From Chloroflexota bacterium (GTDB taxonomy: Bacteria > Chloroflexota > UBA11872), in contig JAPOWQ010000032.1 in assembly GCA_026707585.1 (NCBI GenBank), forward strand, positions 7,383 to 71,382: DNA of 64,000 nt. The letters are read 5' to 3'. A program made the position numbers and the translations under genes. This document shows, in pieces, positions 20,330 through 57,746 of the stretch (position 1 is its first letter; the number at the start of each line of letters is the position of its first letter). A model generated the notes under the pieces. The model searched no databases. It had not been told where the DNA came from and was given only the letters and a program-made list of their open reading frames with translations.

Positions 20330-22774
20330 GTGACCGTCCGGCTGGTGGCGCGAGTTTTGGTCACGGTCCGCAAGTGCCGGGTTGCCGCTGCGAGCTTCGT
20401 GGTAGCCGCGCTCGTCACTCTCTCAGCGACAGGTGCTGCGGCGGGGCCCGCCGATTTCCCGCTCCATCAAGGTTTCTTCTACATGCAGACCGGCGGCGAA
20501 GGTCTGGGCTATGCGGTTCGGGACGAGCCGGGAGCCGCCATCTGGACCGCTTATCAAGACCTTGGCGGTTACGAAGTTCTGGGCTATCCCGTGTCGCAGT
20601 CCTGGCGCGATGGGCCCTTCACGTTCCAGGCGTTTCAGCGAGCGTTGCTGCAGGCTGCTCCCGACGGCAACGTCCGACCCGCCAACATCTACGACGTGCT
20701 TTCCGCGGCCGGGCACGACCCCTGGCTGCAGACGGTAAAAGGTGTGCCGGCGGCCGCCCTTCTGCCACCCGAATCCGGTCCGCTGGCTCGCTTGGACGCT
20801 CTAATGGTCGCGCCGGAAATCGAGGATTTCTGGCGCCAGGCCCCGGATGCCTTGGATCGCTTTGGATTGCCGCTGGGTTACGCATCCGCTGCGGACGGCG
20901 GCGTGCTCCGGGCTCAGCGCGCCGTCCTGCGCCTTAGCGGCGGCAAAGTTCGCCTGGCCCCGGCCGGCGATCACTTCAAGCAGGCCGGGATGATCCCGGC
21001 TCCAAATATGCTGCCAATGGCCCCGCCGCGCATTCCGCGAGCGCTCGTGGAAGCCCACAGTCCCTTAGTAACCAGCGTGGCCTTCGAGCCATCGGGTGGC
21101 GCGTTCGCCACCGGCGGCTATGACCGCCGCGTTGTCATCTGGGACCGGGCGACCTTGACGCCCATCCATGAACTTGAGGGTCACTTCGACGGCATCTACG
21201 AAGTCGCCTATTCCCCTGACGGCTCCCTACTTGCCAGCGCCTCCGAGGATGACACCGTGCGGCTCTGGGATACGCGCTCGGGCGAGCAGATCCATGTGCT
21301 TCAGGCTGACGAGCGTTGGTTTACAAGCGTGGCCTTTAGTCCAGACGGAACGATGGTGGCTGCGACTACCTACGCCGCGGCCCACGTGTGGGATGTGGTG
21401 ACGGGTGAGCATCTCGCCAAGTTCGACGACATCGACGCGTGGTCAAACGGTATCGCCTTTTCGCCCGACGGCAGCCGCCTGGTCACGAGCGGCTGGGCCG
21501 GAGCGGACATCTGGGACATGGCCACGGGCGAGCGCCAACTCTCGTTGACCGAATATCATTCGCGCGCCGTGCTGTCCCTCGCCATCAGTCCCGACGGCAC
21601 GCGCATCGCGACCGGTGCCGATGACAACCTGGCCGTGTTGTGGGACGCCAACAATGGGTCGGCGCTCGCCACCCTCGCAGGCCACAGTGATTCGGTCTGG
21701 CAGGTGGCCTTCAGCCCCGACGGACGCCGGTTGGCCACGGCGTCCAGCGACGCTACGGTGGCTGTCTGGGATGTCGCCACCGCCACCCGCCTCTACAGCC
21801 TGACGGGCCACACCTCGGATGTTCAAGGCCTCAGCTTTAGCCCGGATGGCGAACTCCTGCTATCCGGGAGCTGGGACGGAGACGTTGGCGTGTGGCAAAC
21901 GGCCCTGTCGGAGTTGGCGGCCCAGGCCACTATGCCGGCGCCGGTCAATGCGGTGGATTTCAGTCCCCTCGGAACGTCCGTGGCGACGGCCTTGAATGAC
22001 GGCTCGCTCGTGATCGCTGGAACCGACGGCGCAATCCACGCATCCATCGCCGCCCACGACCGGCCGGCTCGCGCGGTGGCCTACTCGCCGGATGGAGAAG
22101 TCGTGGCCACCGGCGGCGACGACGGCGGGGTGCGGCTGTGGGACGCCGCGCATGGAACGCAGTTGGCCGAAGCGCCGACCGTTCCGGATAGCGTCACCGC
22201 CCTGACGTTCGCGGCGGACGGTCACCTCCTGGCAGGTGACGCCCGCGGCGTCGTCCGACGACTGGACCCGAGCAACGGCGCCCAAGGCTGGACTGTCACG
22301 GTATCCGGCCCCGTCGTGTCGCTGGCAACCGACGGAATCGGCCTTGCGGCCGTAGGCACGTATCGCGAGATCCTGCTTTTCGATGCGGCGACGGGTGTTG
22401 AGCGGTTGCGACTCACAGGGTTCGATGACTGGATTCGCGCTATCCGATTCAACCGACATGTCGCAGAGATGGCGCTGGCGGACGGTGAGACGATCAAGAT
22501 CCTGGCAAGTGGCTCAAACAGCTTGCTGCGGGAGATTGAGCCGGAGGCGGGGCTTATCACGTCGCTGGCCTACCGGCCACACGGCAACGAACTGGCCATC
22601 GGCGCCTATCAACGAACGCTCCTGCGCGATCCCACCGGCGGCCTGAAGCTCGGACGCGCCATCGATGCCCACATCGACTGGATCCGAGCGCTCGCCTACA
22701 GCCCCGACGGCGCGCTGCTGGCCACGGTCGGGGACGACCGCGCCTTGCGCTTCTGGATCACCCGCGCGGACTGA
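20330..22774 (+). CDS. Secreted WD40-repeat beta-propeller protein with an N-terminal LGFP-like repeat module
   Basis: Signal-peptide-like N-terminus and at least 10 WD40 units (GH.D.V..VAFSPDG.LLAS.S.D.TVRLWD). The N-terminal 150 aa are homologous to the N-terminus of the 51943-53520 protein. Confidence 0.8.
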   Translation: MTVRLVARVLVTVRKCRVAAASFVVAALVTLSATGAAAGPADFPLHQGFFYMQTGGEGLGYAVRDEPGAAIWTAYQDLGGYEVLGYPVSQSWRDGPFTFQAFQRALLQAAPDGNVRPANIYDVLSAAGHDPWLQTVKGVPAAALLPPESGPLARLDALMVAPEIEDFWRQAPDALDRFGLPLGYASAADGGVLRAQRAVLRLSGGKVRLAPAGDHFKQAGMIPAPNMLPMAPPRIPRALVEAHSPLVTSVAFEPSGGAFATGGYDRRVVIWDRATLTPIHELEGHFDGIYEVAYSPDGSLLASASEDDTVRLWDTRSGEQIHVLQADERWFTSVAFSPDGTMVAATTYAAAHVWDVVTGEHLAKFDDIDAWSNGIAFSPDGSRLVTSGWAGADIWDMATGERQLSLTEYHSRAVLSLAISPDGTRIATGADDNLAVLWDANNGSALATLAGHSDSVWQVAFSPDGRRLATASSDATVAVWDVATATRLYSLTGHTSDVQGLSFSPDGELLLSGSWDGDVGVWQTALSELAAQATMPAPVNAVDFSPLGTSVATALNDGSLVIAGTDGAIHASIAAHDRPARAVAYSPDGEVVATGGDDGGVRLWDAAHGTQLAEAPTVPDSVTALTFAADGHLLAGDARGVVRRLDPSNGAQGWTVTVSGPVVSLATDGIGLAAVGTYREILLFDAATGVERLRLTGFDDWIRAIRFNRHVAEMALADGETIKILASGSNSLLREIEPEAGLITSLAYRPHGNELAIGAYQRTLLRDPTGGLKLGRAIDAHIDWIRALAYSPDGALLATVGDDRALRFWITRAD

Positions 22775-24437: not shown

Positions 24438-26120
24438 ATGACGCTGCCGTCAGGCTTGGAGGCTTCCGTGGCTGCGTCGCGTCCGCCGTCGTTTCAGGCG
24501 CTGTATAACCGCTATCGGCCGCAGCGGTTTGATGAGCTGATCGGCCAGGAGCACGTGGTGCGGACGCTGCAGAACGCGCTGGTGCATAACCGGCTGAGCC
24601 ACGCATACCTGTTTTCGGGCGAGCGAGGCACCGGCAAAACCACGGCGGCGCGGCTGTTGGCGAAGGCGGTGAATTGCCTGGAAGGGATCCAGGCGGAGGC
24701 GTGCGGCAGCTGCGAGCACTGCCAGGCCATCACCAACGGGGCGTTCCTGGACCTGATCGAGATGGATGCGGCCTCGCATCGCGGGATTGACGATATCCGC
24801 GAGATCCGGGAGCTGACGCAGTTCGCGCCGGGGGCGGGGCGCTTCCGCGTGTACATCATCGACGAGGTTCATCAGCTGTCGGCGCCGGCGAAGGACGCGT
24901 TGCTGAAGACGCTGGAGGAGCCGCCGCCGCAAACGCTGTTTGTGCTGGCGACGACGGAGCCGCACCGGGTGCCGGCCACGATTCGGTCGCGGACGCAGCA
25001 CCTGACGTTTCGTCGTATTGGCGTGCTGGAGTTGACCGCGCAACTGCGCAGCATTGCCGAGACGGAGGAGGCCCAAATCCAGGAGGCCGCGCTGCACACG
25101 CTGGCTCGGAACGCCGGCGGCAGCGCGCGGGACGCGGTGAGCCTGCTGGACCAGGCGCTGGCGTATAGCGATAACGACGCCACCTCAGAGGCCGTGAACT
25201 CGATGTTGGGGCTGACGGCGCGCGACGCGGTGATTCAACTGCTAGGCCACTTGATGGACGGGGACGCCGCGGCCGGTCTGCAGGCGATTGGACAAGCCAT
25301 CGAGGACGGGACCAGCCCGAACACGCTGCGTCAGCAGATCATCGACATCCTGCGGGACATCCTGATCCTGAAGACCAGTCCCGAGACGAGCGCGGTCGGT
25401 CACCTGACGGAGGACGAGGCGTTTGAGCTGTCGCGGCGCACGGAGAGCTCGAGCCTGCGCGACATCGTGCGCACGCTGGAGGTGTTCGCGGAACCGGACC
25501 CGCCATCACGGACGGGCGTGGACGCGACACTGGAGCTGGAGCTGGCGTTCGCGCGCGCGGTGCTCTCGATTACCGAACCCGTGGAGGCCCCGGCGCCGGT
25601 GCCGGCGGCCAGCGAGACTCGACCTGCGGCTCGTCCCTCGCCCGCACCCGCGCCCGCGCGGCCGGTGGAGTCGCCGACCGCTCCAACGACGCCTCCACCG
25701 CAACCGGCGCAGGCAGCGGCGGGACGCCCGGCCGCCCCCGATGGCGACCTTTCCGCGGCGATGATCGCGGCCCGCAAGGACGATTGGGTCTCGGTGATCC
25801 GCGAGGAGGCTCGCGAAATCGCCCCGTACGCCGGGGAAGCCGAAGTCCTGGACTACGCTGACGGCACGGTGACGCTGGGCTATCGCAGTCGCTTCCTGTT
25901 CGAGCGGGTGCAGCGGCCCGACGCCCTGCGCCAGGTGGCGCGGGCGCTGTCGCAGGTGCTAGACCGCCCGATCCAGGTTCGCAACGAACAACGCAGCGCC
26001 TCGACACCAGCCCGTCGCACGTCGGCCAGGACACCGGTTGACGACGATCCGGTGGTGCGGGTGGCAATGCGCGAGTATGGGGCGACATCCATTCCAGACA
26101 CGTCCGCAACGGGAGGTTGA
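24438..26120 (+). CDS. dnaX: DNA polymerase III subunit gamma/tau
   Basis: YRPQRFDELIGQEHVV, Walker A GERGTGKTT, zinc module CGSCEHCQ, and a Pro/Ala-rich linker. The start may be the GTG at ~24468. Confidence 0.9.
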   Translation: MTLPSGLEASVAASRPPSFQALYNRYRPQRFDELIGQEHVVRTLQNALVHNRLSHAYLFSGERGTGKTTAARLLAKAVNCLEGIQAEACGSCEHCQAITNGAFLDLIEMDAASHRGIDDIREIRELTQFAPGAGRFRVYIIDEVHQLSAPAKDALLKTLEEPPPQTLFVLATTEPHRVPATIRSRTQHLTFRRIGVLELTAQLRSIAETEEAQIQEAALHTLARNAGGSARDAVSLLDQALAYSDNDATSEAVNSMLGLTARDAVIQLLGHLMDGDAAAGLQAIGQAIEDGTSPNTLRQQIIDILRDILILKTSPETSAVGHLTEDEAFELSRRTESSSLRDIVRTLEVFAEPDPPSRTGVDATLELELAFARAVLSITEPVEAPAPVPAASETRPAARPSPAPAPARPVESPTAPTTPPPQPAQAAAGRPAAPDGDLSAAMIAARKDDWVSVIREEAREIAPYAGEAEVLDYADGTVTLGYRSRFLFERVQRPDALRQVARALSQVLDRPIQVRNEQRSASTPARRTSARTPVDDDPVVRVAMREYGATSIPDTSATGG

Positions 26121-26123
26121 CGC

Positions 26124-26420
26124 ATGTCGATGAAGATGTTCCGGCAGTTTCAGAAGCAGATGGAGAAGGTCCAGGAAGAACTGAAGCAGATGACCGTGGA
26201 AGCCACGGCGGGCGGCGGCGCGGTCAAGGTCGTGGCCAGCGGGGACCAGCGGGTTGTCTCAATTGACATCGATCCGTCCGTGATCGATCCCGAGGACGCG
26301 GAGTTTCTGGCCGAAATGATCCTGGTAGCAGTGAACGAGGCGATGGAGCAGTCGCAGGAATTGGCGAAAAGCAAGCTGGGCGGGTTGACCGGCGGGCTGA
26401 AGATTCCGGGCCTGGGCTAG
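26124..26420 (+). CDS. ybaB: YbaB/EbfC nucleoid-associated protein
   Basis: 98 aa; MFRQFQKQMEKVQEEL...GGLKIPGL. Canonical position after dnaX. Confidence 0.9.
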   Translation: MSMKMFRQFQKQMEKVQEELKQMTVEATAGGGAVKVVASGDQRVVSIDIDPSVIDPEDAEFLAEMILVAVNEAMEQSQELAKSKLGGLTGGLKIPGLG

Positions 26421-26423
26421 CGC

Positions 26424-27026
26424 GTGGCGGACGCGCTGCCCCGCGCGGTTACGCGGTTGATCGAGGAGTTGTCGCGGCTGCCGACCGTGGGGCCAAAAAC
26501 CGCGCAGCGTCTGGCCTTCTTTCTCTTGCGCGGGACATCAGGCCAGGCGCGCACGCTGGGGACGGCCATCGCGTCGCTGCACGAGGGCATCCAGACCTGC
26601 GGGCGGTGCCGTAACTTCGCGGACTCCGACCCGTGCGCAATCTGCCAGGACCCCACGCGCAACACCGCGCTGCTCTGCGTGGTGGAGGACCCGCTGGACC
26701 TGGTGGCGGTCGAGAACTCGGGCGGGTTCAACGGCCTGTATCACGTGCTGCACGGCGCCATTTCGCCGCTTGAGGGGATCGGGCCCGACGATCTGACGAT
26801 CGACCTGCTGGTGCGGCGGGCCGGGCGCGAGCGCATCGGCGAGGTGGTGATTGCGACCAACGCGACAATTGAGGGCGACGCCACGGCGATGGAGATTCGC
26901 CAGCGGCTGAGCGACCTGGGGGTGCGCGTCACACGGCTGGCGCGCGGGCTCGCGACCGGCGGTGACATCGAGTACGTTGACGCGGCAACCATCGCGCAGG
27001 CGCTGGAGGGTCGGCGTGAACTCTGA
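26424..27026 (+). CDS. recR: Recombination protein RecR
   Basis: HhH (LPTVGPKTAQRLAFFLL), C4 zinc finger (CGRCRNF...CAIC) and Toprim domain. GTG start. Confidence 0.9.
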   Translation: MADALPRAVTRLIEELSRLPTVGPKTAQRLAFFLLRGTSGQARTLGTAIASLHEGIQTCGRCRNFADSDPCAICQDPTRNTALLCVVEDPLDLVAVENSGGFNGLYHVLHGAISPLEGIGPDDLTIDLLVRRAGRERIGEVVIATNATIEGDATAMEIRQRLSDLGVRVTRLARGLATGGDIEYVDAATIAQALEGRREL

Positions 27027-27740: not shown

Positions 27741-28295
27741 CTAGCTTCCGGGTCGGCGTGGGGGCAGGCAGGTTACTTCGGCTTCCTTGGTCAGGTCGTC
27801 GAAGTGGGCTTCACGGACGTTGCCGACTTCCACGGACGTGATCCTGGCTGACACCCGCACGGGTTCGTGGACGAGGCAACGCAGGGCCGACTCCCAACGC
27901 AGGGTGACTCCGGCGCGCAGGCGTTCGGGAACCCAGGTCAGAGTCTTGGATTCGCGAGCGCTGGCGCCGATCTCGCGTCCGTCCTCGTTCGTAATCTTGG
28001 CCCGCGTGGTGGGACTGTAGTCACGGTCTGAGCCCGCATTCTCGGGCAGCGTGAGGGTTGTCTCGATCAGGACGTCCGCTTGACCGATGTTGGTCACCTG
28101 CAGGATGACGTTGGTGCGGCTGGGTCCGGCCACCTCGGTCTGAATCTCGAATCTGAGTTCGGGCGCGGGGGTGGGCGTCGCGAGTGGCTCTACGGTCTCG
28201 CGGCAATCAGCGGCGGCCAGCCCCATCAGCAGCATGGCCAGCGACGCCACGGCTGACGCCAGGCGCCGACCGTGGACAGTGAATCCAGCGTTCAT
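27741..28295 (-). CDS. Secreted/lipoprotein-like hypothetical protein
   Basis: Signal peptide with Cys (LMGLAAADC); no recognised domain. Confidence 0.45.
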   Translation of the reverse strand: MNAGFTVHGRRLASAVASLAMLLMGLAAADCRETVEPLATPTPAPELRFEIQTEVAGPSRTNVILQVTNIGQADVLIETTLTLPENAGSDRDYSPTTRAKITNEDGREIGASARESKTLTWVPERLRAGVTLRWESALRCLVHEPVRVSARITSVEVGNVREAHFDDLTKEAEVTCLPPRRPGS

Positions 28296-29507
28296 GACCT
28301 AGAGCTTAGTGCAGAATGCGCCGTTGTCGGAGGTTTGCGCTGCGACGCGCCAAATCCAGGGGTCCGGAACATCGAACGTCCGCTGACGATCACGCTGCTT
28401 TTTCTGCGGCTGGGGCTGACGGCCTTCGGTGGCCCTGCGGCACACATCGCCATGATGCGGCACGAGTTCGTGACGCGCCGCGAATGGCTGACGGACCGCC
28501 GTTTTCTCGATCTCCTGGGGGTCACAAACCTGATCCCTGGTCCGAATTCCACCGAGATGGCGATTCACCTTGGCCGCGAACGGGCCGGCTGGCGTGGGCT
28601 GGTGGGCGCCGGGGTGGCGTTCATTGCTCCGGCTGCGGTGATGGTTTCGGTCCTGGCCTGGGTCTATGTCGAGTTCGGATCGACGCCGGCGGTGACCTGG
28701 GTGTTGTACGGCGTCAAGCCCGTCGTAATCGCTATCGTGGCCCAGGCCATTTGGGGCCTGGGACGCGTGGTGGTGCGCCGCTGGCAGACGGCGCTGCTGG
28801 CCGCGGGTGTAATTGCCCTTGGTCTACTGGGCGTCAATGAGCTGGTGCTCCTATTTGGCGGCGGCGCTGTGGGCGCGGTGCTGCAGCGTCCGCGGTGGCT
28901 GACGGGACGGCTCTCGGGAGTGCTTGTCGCGCCGCTGGCCAGCGTCGGCGTGGTCGGCGCGGTACCGACGACGTTCAGCCTGCTGGGCATGGCGTTGCTG
29001 TTTCTCAAGATCGGCGCGGTGCTATACGGCAGCGGTTATGTGTTGCTGGCCTTCTTGCGGGCCGATTTTGTGGAGCGCATGGGCTGGCTGACGGAAACAC
29101 AATTGCTGGACGCCGTGGCGATCGGGCAGGTCACGCCGGGGCCCGTATTCACCACGGCCACGTTTATCGGGTTTCTGCTGGCGGGGGTACCGGGCGCCGT
29201 AGTGGCCACGGTGGCGATTTTCCTGCCGTCATTCGTGTTCGTGGCAGCCGTTCACCCGCTGGTCGAGCGGCTGCGCGCGTCCAGCATTACGGCTCCCATA
29301 CTCGACGCGGTCAACGCGGCCGCGGTGGGGCTGATGACCGTGGTGATGGTGCTCCTTGGTCGCTCGGCGCTGGTGGACCTGCCGACAATCCTGGTGGCGC
29401 TGGTGGCGCTGGGCGTACTGATCTTCGCCAAGGTCAACTCGCTCTGGCTGATCCTCGCGGGTGCGGCTGTGGGCGCCGTGGTGCAGGGCGTGGGACTGGC
29501 GCCGTAG
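28272..29507 (+). CDS. chrA: Chromate transporter (CHR family, ChrA-like two-domain)
   Basis: GLTAFGGPAAHIAMM...NLIPGPNSTEM motif and a duplicated CHR domain. Start uncertain: the listed ATG overlaps the divergent gene start by 24 nt, and TTG 28335 is an alternative. Confidence 0.75.
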   Translation: MDSESSVHDLELSAECAVVGGLRCDAPNPGVRNIERPLTITLLFLRLGLTAFGGPAAHIAMMRHEFVTRREWLTDRRFLDLLGVTNLIPGPNSTEMAIHLGRERAGWRGLVGAGVAFIAPAAVMVSVLAWVYVEFGSTPAVTWVLYGVKPVVIAIVAQAIWGLGRVVVRRWQTALLAAGVIALGLLGVNELVLLFGGGAVGAVLQRPRWLTGRLSGVLVAPLASVGVVGAVPTTFSLLGMALLFLKIGAVLYGSGYVLLAFLRADFVERMGWLTETQLLDAVAIGQVTPGPVFTTATFIGFLLAGVPGAVVATVAIFLPSFVFVAAVHPLVERLRASSITAPILDAVNAAAVGLMTVVMVLLGRSALVDLPTILVALVALGVLIFAKVNSLWLILAGAAVGAVVQGVGLAP

Positions 29508-29632
29508 CCGAAGCGCCCAGCAGGAGGGCGGCGCAGGCTGGCGAATGCGCGGTTTGGCGTCCGCCGCAGATCCGATTCAGGCTGGTTTCCCACGACCGGC
29601 TAGGCGAGCGTCCCGGATTCCGCGCATACTGA

Positions 29633-30976
29633 TTGAGTGTGGCAGGAGCGCCGGGGAGCGATCCCGGCGCTGACATGGGCGGTGGAGGCCCTGTGGCAAG
29701 CGCGCCGTCCGAAGCTGGTCCCTCGGTAACCCTGCAGCGGCCCTCGATCGTCATCCTGTTGGGCGTGCTGCTGGTGGCCGCGATGGTCACAACATCGCCG
29801 ATCGCGTACTGGCTGCTCTACGCGCTGGGCGGACTGGTCATCCTCTCCTACACCTGGACGCGCAACGCGGCCCGCGCGTTGCAGCTCCGCCGCCGGCTGC
29901 GGGGCCACCAGATCACGGTCGGCGACGAGGTCCAGGAGGACTTCGAACTCATCAATACCGGCCGCCTGCCGATTCTGCTGGTGGAAGTGGACGACCATTC
30001 GGAGCTGCCGGGCTACCAGGCCTCTGTAGCCGAGAGCCTGGGTCCGCGCCAGCGCAAGCGCTGGATTTCGCGGGGCGTCGCCAGTAGGCGCGGCCTCTAC
30101 GGCCTGGGGCCGACCGATCTGCGTATTGGCGACCCGTTTGGAATCTTCGCCTCGGAACGGCGGATCGATACCCGCAATACGATCGTGGTCTATCCGCCGA
30201 TCTCCATCATGGCTGACGTGGAAATCCCGGCCGGGTCGATGGTCGGCACCTCGCGATCGTCGATTCGAACTCACCAGGTCACGTCGGACGCCGGCGGAAT
30301 CCGGGAGTTTCAGCCGGGCGATCCGCTCAAGCGCATTCACTGGCTGTCCAGCGCGCGGCGCTCGCAGCTTCTGGTCAAGGAATTCGATCTCGAGCCGACG
30401 GCCAACCTCTGGATTGCGCTGGACCTGGATCGGGCGGTGCAGGCTGGGCACGGCGACGAGTCCACGGAGGAATACGGCGTCAAGATCGTGTCCTCGCTGG
30501 CGCACCAGTTCGTGCGCGACAACAAGGCGGTGGGGTTCGTAGCCCTGAGCCGGCACGGGCGCTACCTGATCGAGCCGCAAAAGGGTCTCAAGCAGCTTTG
30601 GCGAATCCTGGAAACCCTGGCGGTGGTGCAGGCCACCGGCACCGCGCCGTTTCACGAGTTTTTGACCGCCAGCGCGGCCGGGCTGGGGCGCGGAACCAGC
30701 TTGGTGGCGATCACACCCTCGGCCGACGCGCGCTGGTTGACCAGCCTGACGCAACTGGGACATCGCGCGATCTACCCAATGGCGGTGGCGCTGGACGCCT
30801 CCACGTTCGGGCCGGCGGATTCGAACGCCGGACTCAGCCAGGCCGCAGCCGCTTCGGGCATCGGCTTCGTGAGCGTGGACCGGGGTATGCGCTTTGAGAT
30901 GATCCGGGCCGACGGCCGCAACCTGGCAGAGTTCGAACGCACCCAGCGACGGCCGGTCACGTTGGCCCCGGCATGA
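29633..30976 (+). CDS. DUF58-domain protein (vWA-like) with N-terminal TM segments
   Basis: DUF58 hallmark IREFQPGDPLKRIHWLSSARRSQLLVKEFDLE. Confidence 0.8.
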   Translation: MSVAGAPGSDPGADMGGGGPVASAPSEAGPSVTLQRPSIVILLGVLLVAAMVTTSPIAYWLLYALGGLVILSYTWTRNAARALQLRRRLRGHQITVGDEVQEDFELINTGRLPILLVEVDDHSELPGYQASVAESLGPRQRKRWISRGVASRRGLYGLGPTDLRIGDPFGIFASERRIDTRNTIVVYPPISIMADVEIPAGSMVGTSRSSIRTHQVTSDAGGIREFQPGDPLKRIHWLSSARRSQLLVKEFDLEPTANLWIALDLDRAVQAGHGDESTEEYGVKIVSSLAHQFVRDNKAVGFVALSRHGRYLIEPQKGLKQLWRILETLAVVQATGTAPFHEFLTASAAGLGRGTSLVAITPSADARWLTSLTQLGHRAIYPMAVALDASTFGPADSNAGLSQAAAASGIGFVSVDRGMRFEMIRADGRNLAEFERTQRRPVTLAPA

Positions 30977-30983
30977 GCGCTCC

Positions 30984-33401
30984 ATGACCGCAGCCGTGGC
31001 CAGCCGTCCGCGTCCGCTGGCGCGCGCCCTGCAACTGCCGCGCACCGCCTGGTTGCCTCTGACCCTGATCGCCACCACCACGCTGGCGCCACTGCTCAGC
31101 GTTCACACGGTTGGTTGGGCGCCCGGCACGGAGGTGCTGCTGTCGGTCGCCTTGGTGGCCATCCTCTTTGGGTTCGCGCTGTCGCGCACCCGGCTGTCGT
31201 CGATCTGGATCGTGGCCATCGGCATGGTCAGCGACCTTGTCGTCGCCTACATCGTGGCTTCGGAAGCGTTTCCGGGTCCGCTGGACGCGATCCGGAACTT
31301 CGTGCTGCTCTTTGGCGACACGGTGGAGTGGGTCCAGCTGCGGCAAGCTGGAAACCTGGTGCGTGAACAGCCCCTGGCAGCGGCGGTTGGCGAGAGCACC
31401 GGACTGTTGCAGGACCTGTTCTTCCGCCTGGAGTCGTGGTTCCAGGCCGCGTTTGCTTTCCAGGTCAGCCGCGACAACATTGTGTTTCTCTTCTGGATGA
31501 CCATGGCCGCGTGGGGCATGGGGTTCACCGCGGCCTGGGCGGCGTTTCGTCTTCGCAACGCCTACCTGGCCATCGCCCCCGGCACGCTGGCGATCGCCGT
31601 CAACATCACCTACGTGGGTCCGGACTGGCCACCGTTCGCGGTGTTTCTGATTGCGGCGCTGGCGCTTACGGTGCATACGCGGCTGGCCTGGCTGGAGGCT
31701 CGGTGGGACGACACGCGGACGGACTATTCCGAGGAGCTTGGGCCCACCGTCCTGATCGTGAGCGCCCTGCTGATCACCGCCGTCGTATTCCTGGCGCTGA
31801 TCTTGCCGCGGGCGGCCGGGAACCCCCTGGCCGAGGCCTTCTGGACCTATATGGGGGACGGCTGGGGCAACGTGGAAGCCGGCATCCAGCGCGTGTTCGG
31901 GGGCGTATCGAATCCCTCAGGTTCCACGCTGGCCGGTCGGGAGACGCTAGCGCTAACGGGACCCGAACCGTTTGCGCGCAAGGAGACGCTGATTATCGAA
32001 AGCACGGTGCCCTCGTACTGGCGGGGTCAGACTTTCGACACCTATACCGGCCAGGGATGGCGCAGCACGATGCGGCTGCTGGAAGGACGCCGAGCCAACC
32101 AGCCGATAACCGAGACCCTGAACCTGAAGTCGCGCCTGGCGTCGCGCTCCAACATCGAAATCCTGGATTCGAACTCGGCCATTCTCTTCGCGCCGGGCGA
32201 CGCCCTGCGTCTCAACCGCCCGTACCAGGTACAAGTGGAGGAGCGTGAGGTCGCCATTGAGGACTACGCCTCGATTCGCGCCACGCGCCGGGTGGGTCAG
32301 CGGCTCGTGTATTCCGTGGACTCGACCCTGGCGGCGGCGACGACGCAACAGCTGCGGACGGCGCCCACCGTTTACCCGGCATGGGCGGAGCGTTACATCG
32401 CGCTTCCCGAACTGCCCCCACGGGTTCTTGAATTTGCCGCCCGCCTGGCGGAAACCGGCGAAACAGCGGTGGACCGGGCGCGTGCCGCCGAGTTCTTCAT
32501 GCGGCGTTTTCCCTATGCCCAGGACACGGAGCCCCTGCCGCCTGATCGCGACGCCACCGACTACTTTCTCTTCGACCTTCGCCGAGGACACGCCACGCAG
32601 ATCGCCTCGACCATGGCCGTGCTGGTTCGGGCCATGGGCATCCCGGCTCGGGTGGCCGCCGGCTACGCGCAGGGTGTCTTCGATCCGGTGACCCAGCGCT
32701 TCATCGTGAATCCCGCCGACGCGCACACCTGGGTGGAGGTCTTCTTCCCGACCTACGGATGGGTGCTCTTTGAACCCTCCGGCTTTCGAGCTCCCGAGGT
32801 GCGCGGCGGGGCTACCGAGGGCTTCGAAGGCGAGGGGCTGAATCCGGACGCCGCGGACTTGTCGATGGTCGATGACTTCCTGGACGAACTCGAGGACATG
32901 GACGTGGGCAACTTCCAACCGCTGGATCCATCCCAAGGCACGAACCAGGTTCAAGAGTTCCTGGCCAACCTCGGCGGGGCGGTTCTGGCGCTGATCATGA
33001 TTGGCGTCGCGCTCGCCGGGTTGGGGGCGCTCTATCTGCTGGGGACCCTGGTCCGCGACCTGATCCAGAGTCCGCAGGCCGCGGTGGGGCGCCGTTACGA
33101 GCGAATGGTCCGCTGGGCGGGACGCGCTGGGTACAATACGCGCCGCGGGTTCACGCCGGTCGAACTTGGCCGCCAGCTCGCCGCCGAGCTTTTTCCGGCG
33201 CCCGCCACTGAAGCGCCCACCAATCCTTCCGCCCCGCCCGAAGTAGTTGCGGAAACCTATGTTCGCGCCACCTATGGCCGGCGGCAGATCACACGCTCGG
33301 AGCGACGCATGGTTGACAAGGCTTGGCGGCGGGTGCGCCTGCGGCTGGCCGTACGGATCATCGGGCGGCCCTTGCGTCGCCTCACGCCGTCTCGAGCCTG
33401 A
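30984..33401 (+). CDS. Polytopic membrane transglutaminase-like (TgpA-like) protein; predicted catalytic Cys to Ala and Asp to Glu
   Basis: Six or more N-terminal TM helices. Transglutaminase-core region FLFDLRRGHATQIAS...GIPARVAAGY...DAHTWVEVFFPTYGWVLFEPS, compared with the canonical RRG.C..[FY]AS...H.W.EV...W...DPT. C-terminal TM and charged tail. Confidence 0.8.
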   Translation: MTAAVASRPRPLARALQLPRTAWLPLTLIATTTLAPLLSVHTVGWAPGTEVLLSVALVAILFGFALSRTRLSSIWIVAIGMVSDLVVAYIVASEAFPGPLDAIRNFVLLFGDTVEWVQLRQAGNLVREQPLAAAVGESTGLLQDLFFRLESWFQAAFAFQVSRDNIVFLFWMTMAAWGMGFTAAWAAFRLRNAYLAIAPGTLAIAVNITYVGPDWPPFAVFLIAALALTVHTRLAWLEARWDDTRTDYSEELGPTVLIVSALLITAVVFLALILPRAAGNPLAEAFWTYMGDGWGNVEAGIQRVFGGVSNPSGSTLAGRETLALTGPEPFARKETLIIESTVPSYWRGQTFDTYTGQGWRSTMRLLEGRRANQPITETLNLKSRLASRSNIEILDSNSAILFAPGDALRLNRPYQVQVEEREVAIEDYASIRATRRVGQRLVYSVDSTLAAATTQQLRTAPTVYPAWAERYIALPELPPRVLEFAARLAETGETAVDRARAAEFFMRRFPYAQDTEPLPPDRDATDYFLFDLRRGHATQIASTMAVLVRAMGIPARVAAGYAQGVFDPVTQRFIVNPADAHTWVEVFFPTYGWVLFEPSGFRAPEVRGGATEGFEGEGLNPDAADLSMVDDFLDELEDMDVGNFQPLDPSQGTNQVQEFLANLGGAVLALIMIGVALAGLGALYLLGTLVRDLIQSPQAAVGRRYERMVRWAGRAGYNTRRGFTPVELGRQLAAELFPAPATEAPTNPSAPPEVVAETYVRATYGRRQITRSERRMVDKAWRRVRLRLAVRIIGRPLRRLTPSRA

Positions 33402-33404
33402 GCC

Positions 33405-33689
33405 GTGGACCTGGCAGGCGTTCGCGATATTGCGGTGGTGGTACTCGCGGCGGTGGCGCTCGTGACAACCATCATCATCCTCATTACCGGGATGTTGGTA
33501 TGGCGTCTGCTGGCCGCGATCCGGGCTGATGTCGCGCCGATCGTTCAGTCGGCCCGGGAGACGGTAGATACCGTCCGAGACACCACGGAATTGGTTAGTG
33601 ACGCGGTGAAGGACGGCACGAGTTCAACCTCGGGCGCTCTCCGGAAGTTTCGTCGAGTTCTGCAGATGGCGCTGCGCTGGTGGAACTGA
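33405..33689 (+). CDS. DUF948-like small membrane protein
   Basis: N-terminal TM helix followed by a coiled/charged region. Start 3 nt after the transglutaminase-like gene stop. Confidence 0.45.
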   Translation: MDLAGVRDIAVVVLAAVALVTTIIILITGMLVWRLLAAIRADVAPIVQSARETVDTVRDTTELVSDAVKDGTSSTSGALRKFRRVLQMALRWWN

Positions 33690-33938
33690 GTGGAATCGCA
33701 TATGGCCTGGATCGTCATTGGCGCAGCCGTCGGGTTTTTTGTGGGCGGAGCGATCGGTACGATCGCCGCGCCCCAGCGGGCGCAGAAAATCATGGATACG
33801 TTGCCAGAACGGTTGAGCGCCATCCGCAGCGCGGCGGAGCAGGCGGCCAGGGAGGCTGAAGCGACGGTGCGACGTCGCTCCCAGCGCTCGCGCGGGCGCC
33901 GACGCCGCCGTAGCCGGGGACGCCGCGGTCGGGGCTGA
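33690..33938 (+). CDS. YtxH-like small membrane protein with Arg-rich tail
   Basis: MAWIVIGAAVGFFVGGAIGTIAAP is YtxH-like. Zero-nt gap from the upstream gene. Confidence 0.4.
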   Translation: MESHMAWIVIGAAVGFFVGGAIGTIAAPQRAQKIMDTLPERLSAIRSAAEQAAREAEATVRRRSQRSRGRRRRRSRGRRGRG

Positions 33939-34252
33939 TGGAAGCCGCGCGCGACATTGCGATCATCCTCCTGGTGATCCAGGGACTGATCGTTGGGCTG
34001 GCGGCGTTCGTCGCCGGAGTCCTTGGGTCCATCGCCATCGTGGAAGCCACCGTGAACGTACGGCGAGGTCTGCGGCGAACCGCCGCAAAGCTGGAGCGGA
34101 CAAACAAGCGTGTGGACTCGATTGTCGAGACGCGCGTTCTACCGCCAATCATCCAGTACCACCGCGGACGGGCGGCGGCACGTTCCACGCTGGAGCAGGC
34201 GCGGCGAGCGCTGGACGACCTTAAACGGACGGCTGGCGTCGGCAGACGCTAA
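33938..34252 (+). CDS. DUF948-like small membrane protein (paralogous architecture to the 33405 gene)
   Basis: TGATG stop/start overlap with the upstream gene; N-terminal TM plus a helical region. Confidence 0.45.
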   Translation: MEAARDIAIILLVIQGLIVGLAAFVAGVLGSIAIVEATVNVRRGLRRTAAKLERTNKRVDSIVETRVLPPIIQYHRGRAAARSTLEQARRALDDLKRTAGVGRR

Positions 34253-34826
34253 ACGGCAGGCTGGCCGAGGGCTTCCGCTTCAGGCTCTGGAGTTCGTCGC
34301 GCAATGCCCGGAGCCGACGGTAGCAGCCGACGAGGTCGTCGAACGAGTAGCGCGTGTTCAAACCGCTCGGGCTCGGAACCACGAATACCACTGACGATTC
34401 CAGCGCGCGGGCCTGACGGCCCGGCCCTGGGCGCGCCGGTGCGGGGAGCCCCTCGCCATGTCGGAGGTAGCTGCGATAGCCATCGATGCCCTGAAAGCAG
34501 ACGACACGGGGCTGAAAGCGCCTGATCTTTGCCGTGAGGATCGGCGACCATCGGCGGTAGTCGGCGGCGCGAAGGTCCTTTGCCGCAGAGGTTGGGCGCT
34601 TCACGACGTCGGTAAGGCCGATGCCAAACTCCAGAACCCGGGCGTCGGTCTCGGGCCCTAGGGGCTCGCCGAACAGGCCGGCCTGGTTAGCGGCGTTCCA
34701 GAAGCGGTTGCCGGGCCGGGCGTAGTAGTGGCCAATTCGCGCGGAATACGCCCCGGGGTTGATACCGACAAGCACAATATCGAGTCCGGGCCCAAGGTAA
34801 TCAGGCAGCGTCTTCATGGGCTTCAC
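34221..34826 (-). CDS. mug: G/U mismatch-specific DNA glycosylase (Mug/TDG family)
   Basis: GINPGAYSARIGHYYARPGNRFW motif. Confidence 0.75.
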   Translation of the reverse strand: MKPMKTLPDYLGPGLDIVLVGINPGAYSARIGHYYARPGNRFWNAANQAGLFGEPLGPETDARVLEFGIGLTDVVKRPTSAAKDLRAADYRRWSPILTAKIRRFQPRVVCFQGIDGYRSYLRHGEGLPAPARPGPGRQARALESSVVFVVPSPSGLNTRYSFDDLVGCYRRLRALRDELQSLKRKPSASLPFSVCRRQPSV

Positions 34827-56132: not shown

Positions 56133-57746
56133 TCAGTTAGCGATCGTCAGCTCGGTGAGCCACTCTCGCGTCATCGGGCGGCCTCCGTAGCCTTCCACCC
56201 AGGGCTGCACGAGCTCGTGCGACACAGAGAACAGCAGCGGAATGAGCACCCCCTGCTCGATGACTCGATCCTCGATCTCTCCGTAGTACGCCAAACGCTC
56301 GTCGTCCGTGTCGGCCGTGCGGGCTTGCTGAATGAGGGCGTCGACGACAGGATCCGAGAAGCGCCACGCGTTGTCCGGTCGATCGGAGCCGAACAGCTCG
56401 TCGGTGAAGTTGAAGGCGTCGGGGAAGTCGGCCGACCACCCAAGGAAAAACGCCGGGATGTCGTGGTCATGTTCGTCCAGCGCGGTGAGGAGATCGTCGA
56501 AGGAGCGCACCTCGATCAGCACATCCACACCAAGCTCGGTCCGCCACGGATCGACGATGAGCTCCACGAAGGGATTTCCGGACAGGCCGTCGCCCGGCGC
56601 CACCACGGTGATGGGCGGCACGGCGTCGGCACCGCCGTACCTCGACTTCTCGAGTTCGGCCCGCGCCGCCTCGAGGTCAAATGCAAGGCCTTCGAAGTCC
56701 GCTCGGTGACCCGGCAAGCCCGGCGGGATGACGCCCCTGGCTTCTCGGTGCGCTCCGGCCAGCACGACGTCGGCAATGAACAGCCGGTCGGTGGCCAGGG
56801 CCAGAGCCCGCCGCACGTGCACGTCGTCGAGAGGCGCCAGCGTCGTGTTAAAGCCGATGTATTGGAACGATAGATCGGGCGTGCTGACCAAGTGGCTGCT
56901 GCGCGGTTCGTTCGGGTCGCGAAACCGGTTCAAATCGGCCGCTCCGATGGAGATCAGGTCAAGCTCGTCGTTCTCGTACAGCAGTAGATCCTCTCCTACG
57001 TCGAGCTGCTGGAACTCAACGGTCGCCGGTCCGCCTGGCAGCCAGGGGGCTGTATCCGCCCGGCCCAGCGTGATCAGCGATTCCGGACGCCAGTCGAGGA
57101 GCTGGTATGGCCCCGATCCATTTGGCGCGCGCCACCACTCGGCGCCCGCCGCGACATTCCGCCAGTCCACGACAAGCGTCGGGCCGGCACTGAGCTTGCT
57201 CGGGAAGAAAGCCAGCGGGGCGGTCAGCGTGACCTCAAGCATTCGCATTCCGCGGACGCGCAGCCCCGAGACCGAGTCGGCCTCGCCAGCCGCAAACGCC
57301 GCTGCACCCTGTATGTCTTCCAGGAACACCGGTCCCGAGAGGGAACCGGTGCCGGGATCCAGGGCGCGGCGCCATGACCACGCGACGTCCGTTGCGGTCA
57401 ATGGCGTCCCGTCGTGAAACCTGGCGTCTCGGCGAATCGTGAAGATATACGTCTGGCCGTCGCTGCTGACGGTCCAACCCGAAGCCAGGTCTGGTTCGAC
57501 CGACAAGTCAGGCGCGATGCGCGTGAGGCCGGCGAAGATCTCCTTTGCGTACTCGGCCGAGTTCGTATCGCGCACGTGAACCGGATCAAGGGTCAGTGGC
57601 TCGTGGGCCGCAAGCCGAAGCGTGCCCGACGCGGCAGGTGCCGTTGGTCCCGCATCGCCGCCGCCAAATACGGTGAACCCCAGGGCAAGCGCCGCGGCAA
57701 GCAATAGCCGACGGACCGCGCGTCTCCACTCGAAGGCCTTAGGCAC
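56133..57746 (-). CDS. ABC transporter substrate-binding protein, family 5 (tandem paralog)
   Basis: Signal peptide; collinear similarity to the 54527 gene. Confidence 0.75.
   Translation of the reverse strand: MPKAFEWRRAVRRLLLAAALALGFTVFGGGDAGPTAPAASGTLRLAAHEPLTLDPVHVRDTNSAEYAKEIFAGLTRIAPDLSVEPDLASGWTVSSDGQTYIFTIRRDARFHDGTPLTATDVAWSWRRALDPGTGSLSGPVFLEDIQGAAAFAAGEADSVSGLRVRGMRMLEVTLTAPLAFFPSKLSAGPTLVVDWRNVAAGAEWWRAPNGSGPYQLLDWRPESLITLGRADTAPWLPGGPATVEFQQLDVGEDLLLYENDELDLISIGAADLNRFRDPNEPRSSHLVSTPDLSFQYIGFNTTLAPLDDVHVRRALALATDRLFIADVVLAGAHREARGVIPPGLPGHRADFEGLAFDLEAARAELEKSRYGGADAVPPITVVAPGDGLSGNPFVELIVDPWRTELGVDVLIEVRSFDDLLTALDEHDHDIPAFFLGWSADFPDAFNFTDELFGSDRPDNAWRFSDPVVDALIQQARTADTDDERLAYYGEIEDRVIEQGVLIPLLFSVSHELVQPWVEGYGGRPMTREWLTELTIAN

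What the first reader, a model, noticed from the sequence alone, without database searches (positions are those of the whole stretch)
32580..32790. Transglutaminase-like protein with predicted catalytic Cys replaced by Ala and Asp by Glu
The transglutaminase-core segment reads RRGHATQIAS, where canonical TgpA-like proteins have RRG-x-C-x-x-[FY]-AS. The nucleophile position is Ala (gcc at 32592-32594). The His motif is retained (DAHTWVEV). The Asp of the usual W..DPT is Glu (FEPS). This suggests a catalytically inactive or mechanistically altered pseudo-transglutaminase acting as a scaffold or binding protein within the operon.
Basis: partly seen in the sequence, partly recalled or inferred. 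Interest (0 to 1): 0.6.

Follow-up and report, generated by a model that had tools for sequence, protein, structure and literature searches.

The report
Cysteine-less TgpA-like pseudo-transglutaminase in Chloroflexota
A membrane protein of a Chloroflexota bacterium has the shape of a transglutaminase/cysteine-protease but has no cysteine at all, and this "dead-looking" version is strictly conserved in a whole lineage, so it is a working non-thiol (probably non-catalytic) relative of an enzyme; such losses turn out to be common in this family, so it is a modest rather than a striking find.

Summary
ORF 30984-33401 (+, 805 aa) is a TgpA-like membrane protein with TgpA_N, Transglut_core and DUF4129 domains. 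Alignment to solved P. aeruginosa TgpA puts Ala537 (GCC, 32592-32594) on the catalytic Cys. The protein has no cysteine at all, so a register error is excluded. In 35 orthologous Chloroflexota loci the codon is Ala, Ser or Pro, so a sequencing error is excluded. The gene is under strong purifying selection (dN/dS 0.06-0.10 overall, 0.03-0.05 in the core). His581 and Glu597 are invariant in the clade. The ex-nucleophile column switched among Ala, Ser and Pro at least 8 times, and the whole Y-C-[DE]-Y-[YF] helix start is remodelled.

Cys-His-Glu is the normal triad of its Cys-bearing relatives (121 of 135 here, and 120 of 120 Caldilineaceae-type proteins).

Nucleophile loss recurs in the family, with at least 10 transitions among 202 relatives.

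The gene sits in a conserved, entirely Cys-free five-gene cluster: DUF58, this protein, then three small single-pass membrane proteins (one DUF948/FacZ-like, one YtxH-like). No MoxR lies in the window.

Best reading: a conserved pseudo-transglutaminase acting as an extracytoplasmic binding or scaffold module. Interest is modest.

The parts
29633..30976 (+). DUF58 protein (447 aa, two N-terminal TM helices, vWA-like domain without a classical MIDAS motif). It ends 7 nt before the TgpA-like gene and has zero Cys.
   Evidence: Pfam DUF58 E=6.8e-16. It lies directly upstream of the TgpA-like gene in all 35 Cys-less loci. Alignment with DUF58 partners of Cys-bearing relatives shows no difference at the LDLD motif.
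30984..33401 (+). TgpA-like protein, 805 aa, with no cysteine.
31059..32339 (+). TgpA_N (DUF3488) region, residues 26-452: about 7 TM helices followed by an extracytoplasmic beta domain.
   Evidence: Pfam PF11992 E=1.7e-9, 37.6 bits against a cutoff of 30. The AF2 secondary structure shows helices 20-304 and then strands 321-450.
32433..32777 (+). Transglut_core domain, residues 484-598.
   Evidence: Pfam PF01841 E=1.2e-18. AF2 pLDDT is about 87-97 over this stretch. Foldseek to TgpA 6g4h/6g49 gives E about 1e-14 and TM(target) 0.67-0.68. dN/dS is 0.03-0.05.
32580..32609 (+). Remodelled nucleophile motif RRGHATQIAS. Cys-bearing relatives have [KRQ]xG[YF]C[DE]Y[YF]A[ST] here.
   Evidence: Column profiles of the 39-sequence clade against 135 Cys-bearing relatives.
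32592..32594 (+). Codon GCC = Ala537, at the position of the catalytic Cys.
32724..32726 (+). Codon CAC = His581, the retained triad His.
   Evidence: Invariant in all 68 homologues and has entropy 0 in the clade.
32772..32774 (+). Codon GAA = Glu597, the third triad residue (Glu is the subfamily norm).
   Evidence: Glu in 100% of the clade and 90% of Cys-bearing relatives. 120 of 120 Caldilineaceae-type proteins are C-H-E.
33093..33329 (+). DUF4129 domain, residues 704-782. It follows the last TM helix (about residues 663-694) and is inferred to be cytoplasmic.
   Evidence: Pfam PF13559 E=1e-5, 25.9 bits against a cutoff of 24.8. The topology is an inference from the TM count and Arg-rich tails.
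33405..33689 (+). Small ORF 1 (94 aa): N-terminal TM helix plus a helical tail, DUF948/FacZ(YtxG)-like below threshold.
   Evidence: It starts 3 nt after the TgpA-like stop codon. It is conserved in all Cys-less loci checked. 7 of 10 orthologues give weak DUF948 hits, best E=0.0043.
33690..33938 (+). Small ORF 2 (82 aa): glycine-zipper TM helix plus a helical, Arg-rich tail, YtxH-like.
   Evidence: YtxH E=0.0019, below the Pfam cutoff. The orthologue in L044 carries a Pfam YtxH hit on record. Conservation is shown.
33938..34252 (+). Small ORF 3 (104 aa): N-terminal TM helix plus a helical tail, a distant paralogue of small ORF 1.
   Evidence: hhalign of A3 against A4 gives probability 90%, E=1.8e-6. 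Conservation is shown.

Best explanation
ORF 30984-33401 encodes a TgpA-family membrane protein whose extracytoplasmic transglutaminase/papain-like core has lost the thiol nucleophile. It can no longer carry out Cys-dependent transamidation or proteolysis. The loss is ancient: it is shared by a Chloroflexota clade that has diverged to about 34-40% identity. It most likely ran Cys (TGC) to Ser (TCN) to Ala (GCN) or Pro (CCC), each step a single base change. The start of the helix that carries the nucleophile was remodelled along with it. The rest of the domain, including the His-Glu pair and the surrounding invariant Arg, Trp, Gly and Glu residues, is held by strong purifying selection. The most likely mode of action is therefore non-catalytic. 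The core would keep its cleft as a binding or scaffold module on the outside of the membrane. It would be coupled through its TM helices and cytoplasmic DUF4129 tail to the cytoplasmic DUF58 partner and to three co-transcribed small single-pass membrane proteins (DUF948/FacZ-like and YtxH-like), probably in a cell-envelope role. Shown here: the substitution, the absence of any Cys, the conservation, the selection, the fold and the gene cluster. Inferred: non-catalytic binding, the topology, and the envelope role.
For: - Register: alignment to solved TgpA puts Ala537 on the catalytic Cys, and 68 homologues align without gaps around it.
- No alternative thiol: there are 0 Cys in the 805 aa, and 0 in all five cluster proteins together (1532 aa, about 11 expected from the window average).
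- Clade-wide loss: 39 of 39 clade members and 35 of 35 genomic loci have Ala, Ser or Pro.
- No nucleophile requirement: the column changed at least 8 times among Ala, Ser and Pro inside the clade. Its entropy is 1.22 bits, above the core median of 0.78. His581 and Glu597 have entropy 0.
- Concerted remodelling: the flanking residues Y536, [DE]538, Y539 and [YF]540 of Cys-bearing relatives are replaced by H/S/Y, T/S/A, L/Q/M and I.
- The gene is functional: dN/dS is 0.06-0.10 for the whole gene and 0.03-0.05 for the core against 8 orthologues with dS of 0.45-1.2.
- The fold is retained: AF2 core pLDDT is about 90, and Foldseek to TgpA 6g4h/6g49 gives E about 1e-14 and TM 0.67-0.68.
- Module: the order DUF58, TgpA-like gene, three small ORFs is conserved with 0-7 nt gaps across the clade down to 34% identity. 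The small ORFs are absent downstream of seven Cys-bearing relatives' loci.
- Precedent: non-catalytic transglutaminase-like domains that are nevertheless essential or functional include fission-yeast Cyk3p (PMC3386208) and EPB42, menin and Rad4 (PMC10318531).
Against: - His581 and Glu597 are absolutely conserved. A purely structural scaffold might not need that, and it leaves room for residual or altered chemistry.
- About 40% of clade members have Ser at the site, and Ser could in principle act as a nucleophile.
- No binding partner or ligand is identified.
- The function of even the active TgpA is unknown.
- The association with the small ORFs rests on a limited number of Cys-bearing comparison loci.
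- The NJ tree behind the loss counts is crude.
Confidence: 0.6

Rival explanations
1. Altered-mechanism enzyme. The His-Glu pair still catalyses a reaction, either by activating water directly or by using Ser537 as nucleophile in the Ser-bearing orthologues. On this reading the protein is a thiol-independent hydrolase or amidase rather than a pseudoenzyme.
For: His581 and Glu597 are invariant across a clade diverged to about 39% identity. 15 of 39 clade members have Ser. Other lineages show a conservative C-to-S change with the rest of the motif intact (GYSDY[FY]AS), which looks like a true Ser-His-Glu variant.
Against: Inside this clade the column toggles among Ala, Ser and Pro at least 8 times between close relatives (for example 91%-identical proteins differ). 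Ala and Pro cannot be nucleophiles. The neighbouring motif residues that shape the site are also replaced. No other Ser, Thr or Asp becomes newly invariant next to the site. His and Glu are also invariant for structural reasons in many inactive papain-like domains (general knowledge).
Confidence: 0.12
2. Regulatory partner of an active paralogue. The Cys-less protein works as a decoy, activator or competitor of a Cys-bearing TgpA-like enzyme encoded elsewhere in the same genome, as many pseudoenzymes do.
For: Chloroflexota genomes can carry several TgpA-like paralogues: a second Transglut_core+DUF4129 gene lies about 6 kb from P0044 in L039. The family is large, with 28,290 hits at E<=0.001.
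Against: There is no paralogue in the 64-kb window. None was detected on the same chromosomes by matching contig lengths, though that test is weak. The protein keeps its own DUF58 partner and full architecture, which suggests an autonomous module.
Confidence: 0.2
3. Artefact or decay: a sequencing or assembly error at the codon, a mis-registered alignment, or a gene on its way to becoming a pseudogene.
Against: The same GCC codon is present in 9 independent assemblies, and Ala, Ser or Pro is present in 35 of 35 loci. The protein has zero Cys. The 804-810-aa ORF is intact in all loci and dN/dS is 0.03-0.10.
Confidence: 0.01

Closest known systems
TgpA (PA2873) of Pseudomonas aeruginosa, PDB 6g49/6g4h; Pfam architecture TgpA_N + Transglut_core (+DUF4129)
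   Same: It has the same domain architecture and the same inferred topology: a polytopic N-terminal membrane domain, an extracytoplasmic beta domain plus transglutaminase core, a further TM helix and a cytoplasmic tail. Sequence match to 6g49 is E=2.6e-19. The fold match has TM 0.67-0.68. A DUF58 gene lies immediately upstream, as in the Acidimicrobiales relative's MoxR-DUF58-TgpA operon. From memory, not checked here, the same holds for the PA2875-2872 operon described in PMC3507681.
   Different: TgpA has a Cys-His-Asp triad and measurable Ca-independent transglutaminase activity (PMC3507681). Here the Cys is Ala, the helix start is remodelled and the protein has no Cys. No MoxR ATPase lies in the 64 kb. 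Three small membrane-protein genes follow the gene.
Cys-bearing TgpA-like proteins of Chloroflexota (Caldilineaceae type, e.g. L036 7896-10346, P0044, P0070)
   Same: They share 27-37% identity, the same architecture, the same Glu as third triad residue (EFEPT against FEPS), and a DUF58 partner without adjacent MoxR in P0044 and P0070.
   Different: They keep G[YF]C[DE]Y[YF]A[ST] (120 of 120). They are not followed by the three small ORFs.
Eukaryotic pseudo-transglutaminases: erythrocyte band 4.2 (EPB42) and yeast Cyk3
   Same: They have a transglutaminase-core fold that lacks the catalytic Cys yet is functionally important. [quoted passage not shown] PMC10318531 lists EPB42 as catalytically inactive. 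They act as membrane- or envelope-associated scaffolds.
   Different: They are unrelated lineages with different architectures (soluble and cytoplasmic). This protein is a bacterial polytopic membrane protein with an extracytoplasmic core. The analogy concerns how it works, not family membership.
FacZ/YtxG (DUF948) and YtxH small membrane proteins of Firmicutes
   Same: Small ORFs 1 and 2 share the layout: an N-terminal TM helix plus a helical tail, encoded side by side. They give weak DUF948 and YtxH profile hits. FacZ/YtxG acts in envelope and division-site control (PMC10914604, PMC12716459).
   Different: The window copies score below Pfam thresholds. There is no evidence of GpsB-type partners. 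Linkage to DUF58 and a TgpA-like gene is not described for the Firmicutes proteins.

Membership tests
TgpA family (TgpA_N + Transglut_core membrane proteins) | N-terminal polytopic membrane domain TgpA_N/DUF3488 | tested here: met
   PF11992 E=1.7e-9, 37.6 bits against a cutoff of 30, residues 26-452.
TgpA family (TgpA_N + Transglut_core membrane proteins) | Transglut_core domain with a TgpA-like fold | tested here: met
   PF01841 E=1.2e-18. phmmer to 6g49 gives E=2.6e-19. Foldseek to 6g4h/6g49 gives E about 1e-14 and TMt 0.67-0.68.
TgpA family (TgpA_N + Transglut_core membrane proteins) | Catalytic Cys at the N-terminus of the core helix | tested here: not met
   Ala537 aligns with the TgpA Cys. 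The protein has 0 Cys. The clade has Ala, Ser or Pro.
TgpA family (TgpA_N + Transglut_core membrane proteins) | Catalytic His and acidic third residue | tested here: met
   His581 is invariant and Glu597 is 100% in the clade. Glu is also the norm in Cys-bearing relatives.
TgpA family (TgpA_N + Transglut_core membrane proteins) | Operon partner DUF58 upstream | tested here: met
   DUF58 at 29633-30976 ends 7 nt upstream. The arrangement is conserved in 35 loci.
TgpA family (TgpA_N + Transglut_core membrane proteins) | MoxR-type AAA+ ATPase in the same operon (as in Acidimicrobiales L041) | tested here: not met
   The only P-loop proteins in the 64 kb are DnaX and an ABC ATPase. Upstream genes in the window, L018 and L027 are unrelated. 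MoxR is also absent next to the Cys-bearing Chloroflexota relatives P0044 and P0070.
TgpA family (TgpA_N + Transglut_core membrane proteins) | Transglutaminase activity in vitro | not testable with these tools
   This needs purified protein. Thiol-based activity is impossible without a Cys.
Pseudo-transglutaminases (inactive transglutaminase-like domains, e.g. EPB42, Cyk3) | Transglutaminase-core fold lacking the nucleophile Cys | tested here: met
Pseudo-transglutaminases (inactive transglutaminase-like domains, e.g. EPB42, Cyk3) | Maintained by selection, hence functional despite the loss | tested here: met
   Core dN/dS is 0.03-0.05, and the ORF is intact in 35 genomes.
Pseudo-transglutaminases (inactive transglutaminase-like domains, e.g. 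EPB42, Cyk3) | Demonstrated absence of catalysis and a non-catalytic role | not testable with these tools
   This requires biochemistry and genetics.
DUF948 (FacZ/YtxG) and YtxH families, for small ORFs 33405-33938 | Profile match above the Pfam gathering threshold | tested here: inconclusive
   Window copies: DUF948 E=4.8 and YtxH E=0.0019, both below cutoff. 7 of 10 orthologues hit DUF948 weakly. The L044 orthologue of ORF 2 has a YtxH hit on record.

The most novel reading that the evidence does not exclude
The Cys-less TgpA-like protein is the core of a previously undescribed five-gene envelope module of (largely sponge-associated) Chloroflexota: DUF58, pseudo-TgpA, a DUF948/FacZ-like protein, a YtxH-like protein and a second DUF948-like paralogue. 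In this module, loss of catalysis converted an extracytoplasmic transglutaminase or protease into a receptor or scaffold that organises small membrane proteins acting in cell-envelope or division control. This would be a bacterial parallel to the inactive transglutaminase domain of yeast Cyk3 in cytokinesis.
Probability: 0.25. Interest if true: 0.5.

Novelty: new variant of a known kind. Interest (0 to 1): 0.3.

Why it matters
TgpA-like proteins with DUF58, and often MoxR, are very widespread: 28,290 relatives were found at E<=0.001 in the representative library. TgpA is critical for viability in P. aeruginosa (PMC3507681). Their cellular role is nevertheless unknown.

A lineage that has discarded the nucleophile but keeps the rest of the protein, its DUF58 partner and the His-Glu pair under strong selection shows that at least part of the family's function does not need thiol catalysis. 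It offers a natural separation-of-function variant for study.

The recurrent loss (at least 10 events) is also a warning for annotation pipelines that label all of these proteins "transglutaminase-like putative cysteine protease".

The linkage to DUF948/FacZ-like and YtxH-like small proteins gives a testable hint of an envelope or division role.

It is not a new kind of system. Inactive transglutaminase-like domains are well known in eukaryotes.

Tried and rejected
1. Register error or hidden Cys: rejected, because the protein has no Cys.
2. Sequencing error or pseudogene: rejected on orthologue codons and dN/dS.
3. Asp-to-Glu as a degenerate feature: rejected, because Glu is the subfamily norm.
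4. MoxR partner in the window: not found. A P-loop scan finds only DnaX and an ABC ATPase, and Pfam scans of neighbours agree.
5. Co-degeneration of the DUF58 partner (loss of MIDAS): rejected. DUF58 partners of Cys-bearing and Cys-less proteins look alike.
6. A second TgpA-like gene in the window: none.
7. A same-genome Cys-bearing paralogue: tested by matching contig lengths in a second homologue search. Nothing was found, but the test is weak, because only the best 120 hits are listed and all are Caldilineaceae-type.
8. NCBIfam naming: no model matches the TgpA-like or DUF58 protein.
9. Promoter and terminator scan of 29300-34500: nothing informative.
10. Literature on bacterial Cys-less TgpA-like proteins: none found.
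11. Triad geometry: could not be measured, because model coordinates are not exposed to scripts.
12. The Cys-free state of the whole cluster looked striking (P about 1e-5 under a uniform rate). However, three other proteins over 500 aa in the window are also Cys-free, so it is not given weight beyond excluding a thiol supplied in trans from the operon.
Full report
**1. What is at the coordinates**

The window is 66.8% G+C. ORF 30984-33401 on the + strand encodes 805 aa. Pfam finds three domains:
- TgpA_N at residues 26-452: E=1.7e-9, 37.6 bits against a cutoff of 30.
- Transglut_core at residues 484-598: E=1.2e-18, 67.7 bits against a cutoff of 23.
- DUF4129 at residues 704-782: E=1e-5.

- RRGHATQIAS is residues 533-542 (nt 32580-32609).
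- Ala537 is GCC at 32592-32594.
- His581 is CAC at 32724-32726, within DAHTWVEV.
- Glu597 is GAA at 32772-32774, within FEPS.

**2. Is the register right?**

phmmer against all PDB chains finds P. aeruginosa TgpA (6g49/6g4h) at E=2.6e-19. It aligns 'fdlrrghatqiastma' to 'fdtrsgfcahyagama' with top posterior marks. Ala537 therefore lies on the catalytic Cys, His581 on the His of 'dahawve', and Glu597 on the Asp of 'vDPT'.

An alignment of 68 homologues is ungapped around the motif and gives the same columns.

An AlphaFold2 model built on that alignment has mean pLDDT 74.7, with about 87-97 over the core. Its best PDB matches are the two TgpA periplasmic-domain structures (Foldseek E about 1e-14, TM normalised to target 0.67-0.68).

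That is excluded outright, because the 805-aa protein contains no cysteine.

**3. Is it an error or a dying gene?**

A scan of one genome per species returned 38 loci, all from Chloroflexota MAGs. Several isolate names (RHO, COS, SB0662 bins, Langseth) look to me like sponge-microbiome studies; this was not checked.

In 35 of these loci (41-95% identity) the orthologous codon is one of the following:
- GCC or GCG (Ala).
- TCC, TCG, TCA or TCT (Ser).
- CCC (Pro).

Only the three distant loci L036-L038 (27-28% identity) have TGC or TGT. The window's GCC is found in 9 independent assemblies.

Nei-Gojobori dN/dS against eight orthologues (dS 0.45-1.2) gives these values:

| Region | dN/dS |
|---|---|
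| Whole gene | 0.06-0.10 |
| Transglut_core | 0.03-0.05 |
| Acidic linker and C-terminal tail | up to about 0.27 |

The core is among the most constrained parts of the protein. This is a functional gene whose core is under strong constraint.

**4. How special is the substitution?**

- **Glu is not a substitution of note.** Of 202 full-length relatives, 121 are C/H/E and 13 are C/H/D. All 120 Caldilineaceae-type TgpA proteins from a second search are C/H/E. Cys-His-Glu is the normal triad of this subfamily.
- **The loss covers a whole clade.** On a neighbour-joining tree, the window protein sits in a monophyletic group of 39 sequences that all lack Cys: 22 Ala, 15 Ser and 2 Pro. His and Glu are retained in all of them.
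- **The column is variable within the clade.** It changed at least 8 times and has entropy 1.22 bits, which ranks 82nd of 117 core positions. His581 and Glu597 have entropy 0.
- **The neighbours changed too.** Cys-bearing relatives read G-[YF]-C-[DE]-Y-[YF]-A-[ST]. The clade reads G-[HSY]-[ASP]-[TSA]-[LQM]-I-A-S.
- **Nucleophile loss is recurrent in the family.** There are at least 10 Cys/non-Cys transitions on the tree. At least three styles occur:
  - A conservative C-to-S change with an intact motif (GYSDY[FY]AS).
  - The remodelled type seen here.
  - Lineages that lost all three triad residues (F-[YF]-N).

The codons fit a single-step path from TGC to TCC to GCC or CCC. This path is an inference.

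**5. Surroundings**

*Upstream gene.* Seven nucleotides upstream ends a DUF58 gene (29633-30976; Pfam E=6.8e-16). Upstream of that lie a chromate transporter and the dnaX-ybaB-recR block.

*No MoxR.* There is no MoxR in the window. The only P-loops in all six frames belong to DnaX and an ABC ATPase.

*Downstream genes.* Three small ORFs are packed against the TgpA-like gene at 33405-33689, 33690-33938 and 33938-34252. Each has one N-terminal TM helix and a helical tail.
- ORF 1 orthologues hit DUF948 weakly (7 of 10, best E=0.0043).
- ORF 2 hits YtxH (E=0.0019 in the window; a Pfam hit on record in L044).
- ORF 3 is a distant paralogue of ORF 1 (hhalign probability 90%).

*Conservation of the cluster.* The five-gene order is conserved across the Cys-less clade, including the 41-43%-identity branch and a 34%-identity relative, P0071/L044.

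*Comparison loci:*

| Relative | Nucleophile | Context |
|---|---|---|
| L036 (816-aa TgpA-like gene) | Cys | No DUF58 match upstream and no comparable small TM ORF called downstream; L037 and L038 were compared only by tblastn with the window's proteins, which found no DUF58 or small-ORF match |
| P0044 | Cys | DUF58 partner, no MoxR, none of the three small ORFs downstream; second paralogue nearby |
| P0070 | Cys | DUF58 partner, no small ORFs |
| P0043 | Cys | No small ORFs |
| P0050 (Acidimicrobiales) | Cys | Classical MoxR-DUF58-TgpA, no small ORFs |
| P0074 | Ala (independent lineage) | Neither DUF58 nor small ORFs |

*DUF58 comparison.* DUF58 partners of Cys-less and Cys-bearing proteins do not differ at the LDLD (non-MIDAS) motif.

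*Cysteine content.* All five cluster proteins (1532 aa) are Cys-free, against about 11 Cys expected from the window average of 0.74%. Several other large window proteins are also Cys-free. I use this only to exclude a thiol supplied by an operon partner.

**6. Mechanism**

Shown:
- No thiol chemistry is possible.
- The fold, the His-Glu pair and the other invariant residues (R549, R556, G560, G564, W583, E585) are kept under strong selection.
- The ex-nucleophile position tolerates Ala, Ser and Pro.

Inferred: the core now works as a non-catalytic binding or scaffold module.

Topology is also inferred, from the AF2 helices and the Arg-rich termini:
- The N-terminus is inside, followed by about 7 TM helices.
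- The beta domain and core are outside.
- One more TM helix follows, and the DUF4129 tail is inside.
- DUF58 has a TM hairpin and a cytoplasmic globular domain.
- The assembly would therefore span the membrane.

The DUF948 relative FacZ/YtxG controls division-site placement and membrane integrity in Firmicutes (PMC10914604, PMC12716459). This makes an envelope role a reasonable but unproven guess.

**7. Comparison with what is known**

By architecture and fold this is a TgpA-family protein. It fails the family's catalytic-Cys feature and lacks an adjacent MoxR.

TgpA itself has a conserved Cys-His-Asp triad, Ca-independent transglutaminase activity and a critical role in viability in P. aeruginosa (PMC3507681).

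Functionally the closest analogues are eukaryotic inactive transglutaminase-like domains:
- EPB42, menin and Rad4, listed as inactive papain-like or transglutaminase-like proteins (PMC10318531).

I found no paper describing Cys-less bacterial TgpA-like proteins or this five-gene cluster. The library is limited, however; the TgpA structure paper itself is not in it.

**8. Verdict**

- Novelty: a new variant of a known kind.
- Interest is modest (0.3). Loss of the nucleophile is frequent in this family, inactive transglutaminase-like domains are well known, and no function is established. The conserved clade with its small-ORF partners is a useful natural separation-of-function case for a widespread family that remains unexplained.

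Noticed in passing
window 33405-34252 (three ORFs: 33405-33689, 33690-33938, 33938-34252): Three tightly packed small single-pass membrane-protein genes follow the TgpA-like gene. ORF 1 is DUF948/FacZ-like, ORF 2 is YtxH-like, and ORF 3 is a distant paralogue of ORF 1. All three are conserved with the Cys-less TgpA-like gene down to 34% identity. They are absent after the Cys-bearing relatives examined.
   Followed up: partly
window 29633-34252: All five proteins of the cluster (1532 aa) contain no cysteine, against about 11 expected from the window average of 0.74%. Three other window proteins of more than 500 aa (2371-4092, 43510-45270, 56133-57746) are also Cys-free, so Cys usage is very uneven in this genome.
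   Followed up: partly
related proteins P0091, P0099, P0117, P0138, P0147 and others; P0137, P0143, P0145, P0202, P0206, P0214: Other TgpA-like lineages lost the Cys in different ways. One group has a conservative Cys-to-Ser change with the rest of the motif intact (GYSDY[FY]AS), giving a possible Ser-His-Glu triad. Another group lost all three triad residues (F-[YF]-N). At least 10 independent Cys/non-Cys transitions occur among 202 relatives.
   Followed up: partly
window 1-64000; L039, L041, L042: No MoxR AAA+ gene lies anywhere in the window, nor next to the DUF58-TgpA pairs of the other Chloroflexota examined. An Acidimicrobiales relative has the classical MoxR-DUF58-TgpA operon. The DUF58-TgpA pair seems uncoupled from MoxR in this phylum, at least in gene order.
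   Followed up: partly
window 20330-22774 (+): An 814-aa protein with a large WD40 beta-propeller array (7 WD40 repeats by Pfam, with strong matches to many eukaryote-type propeller models). Eukaryote-like repeat proteins of this kind are, from my own knowledge, typical of sponge symbionts. That would fit the sponge-MAG origin I infer, unverified, from the names of the closest loci.
   Followed up: no
L039 1-166 (-) and 6001-8412 (+): A Cys-bearing Chloroflexota relative (P0044) has a second Transglut_core+DUF4129 paralogue (788 aa) about 6 kb away on the opposite strand, next to three M42 peptidase genes. TgpA-like paralogues can therefore coexist in one genome.
   Followed up: no
window 24438-27026: The conserved dnaX - ybaB/ebfC - recR block lies upstream. 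It is followed by an MBL-fold hydrolase, a 184-aa ORF of unknown function on the minus strand (27741-28295, no Pfam hit, conserved in orthologous loci) and a chromate transporter. In L004 and L022 the gap between chrA and DUF58 is about 4-6 kb longer, which suggests an insertion there.
   Followed up: no
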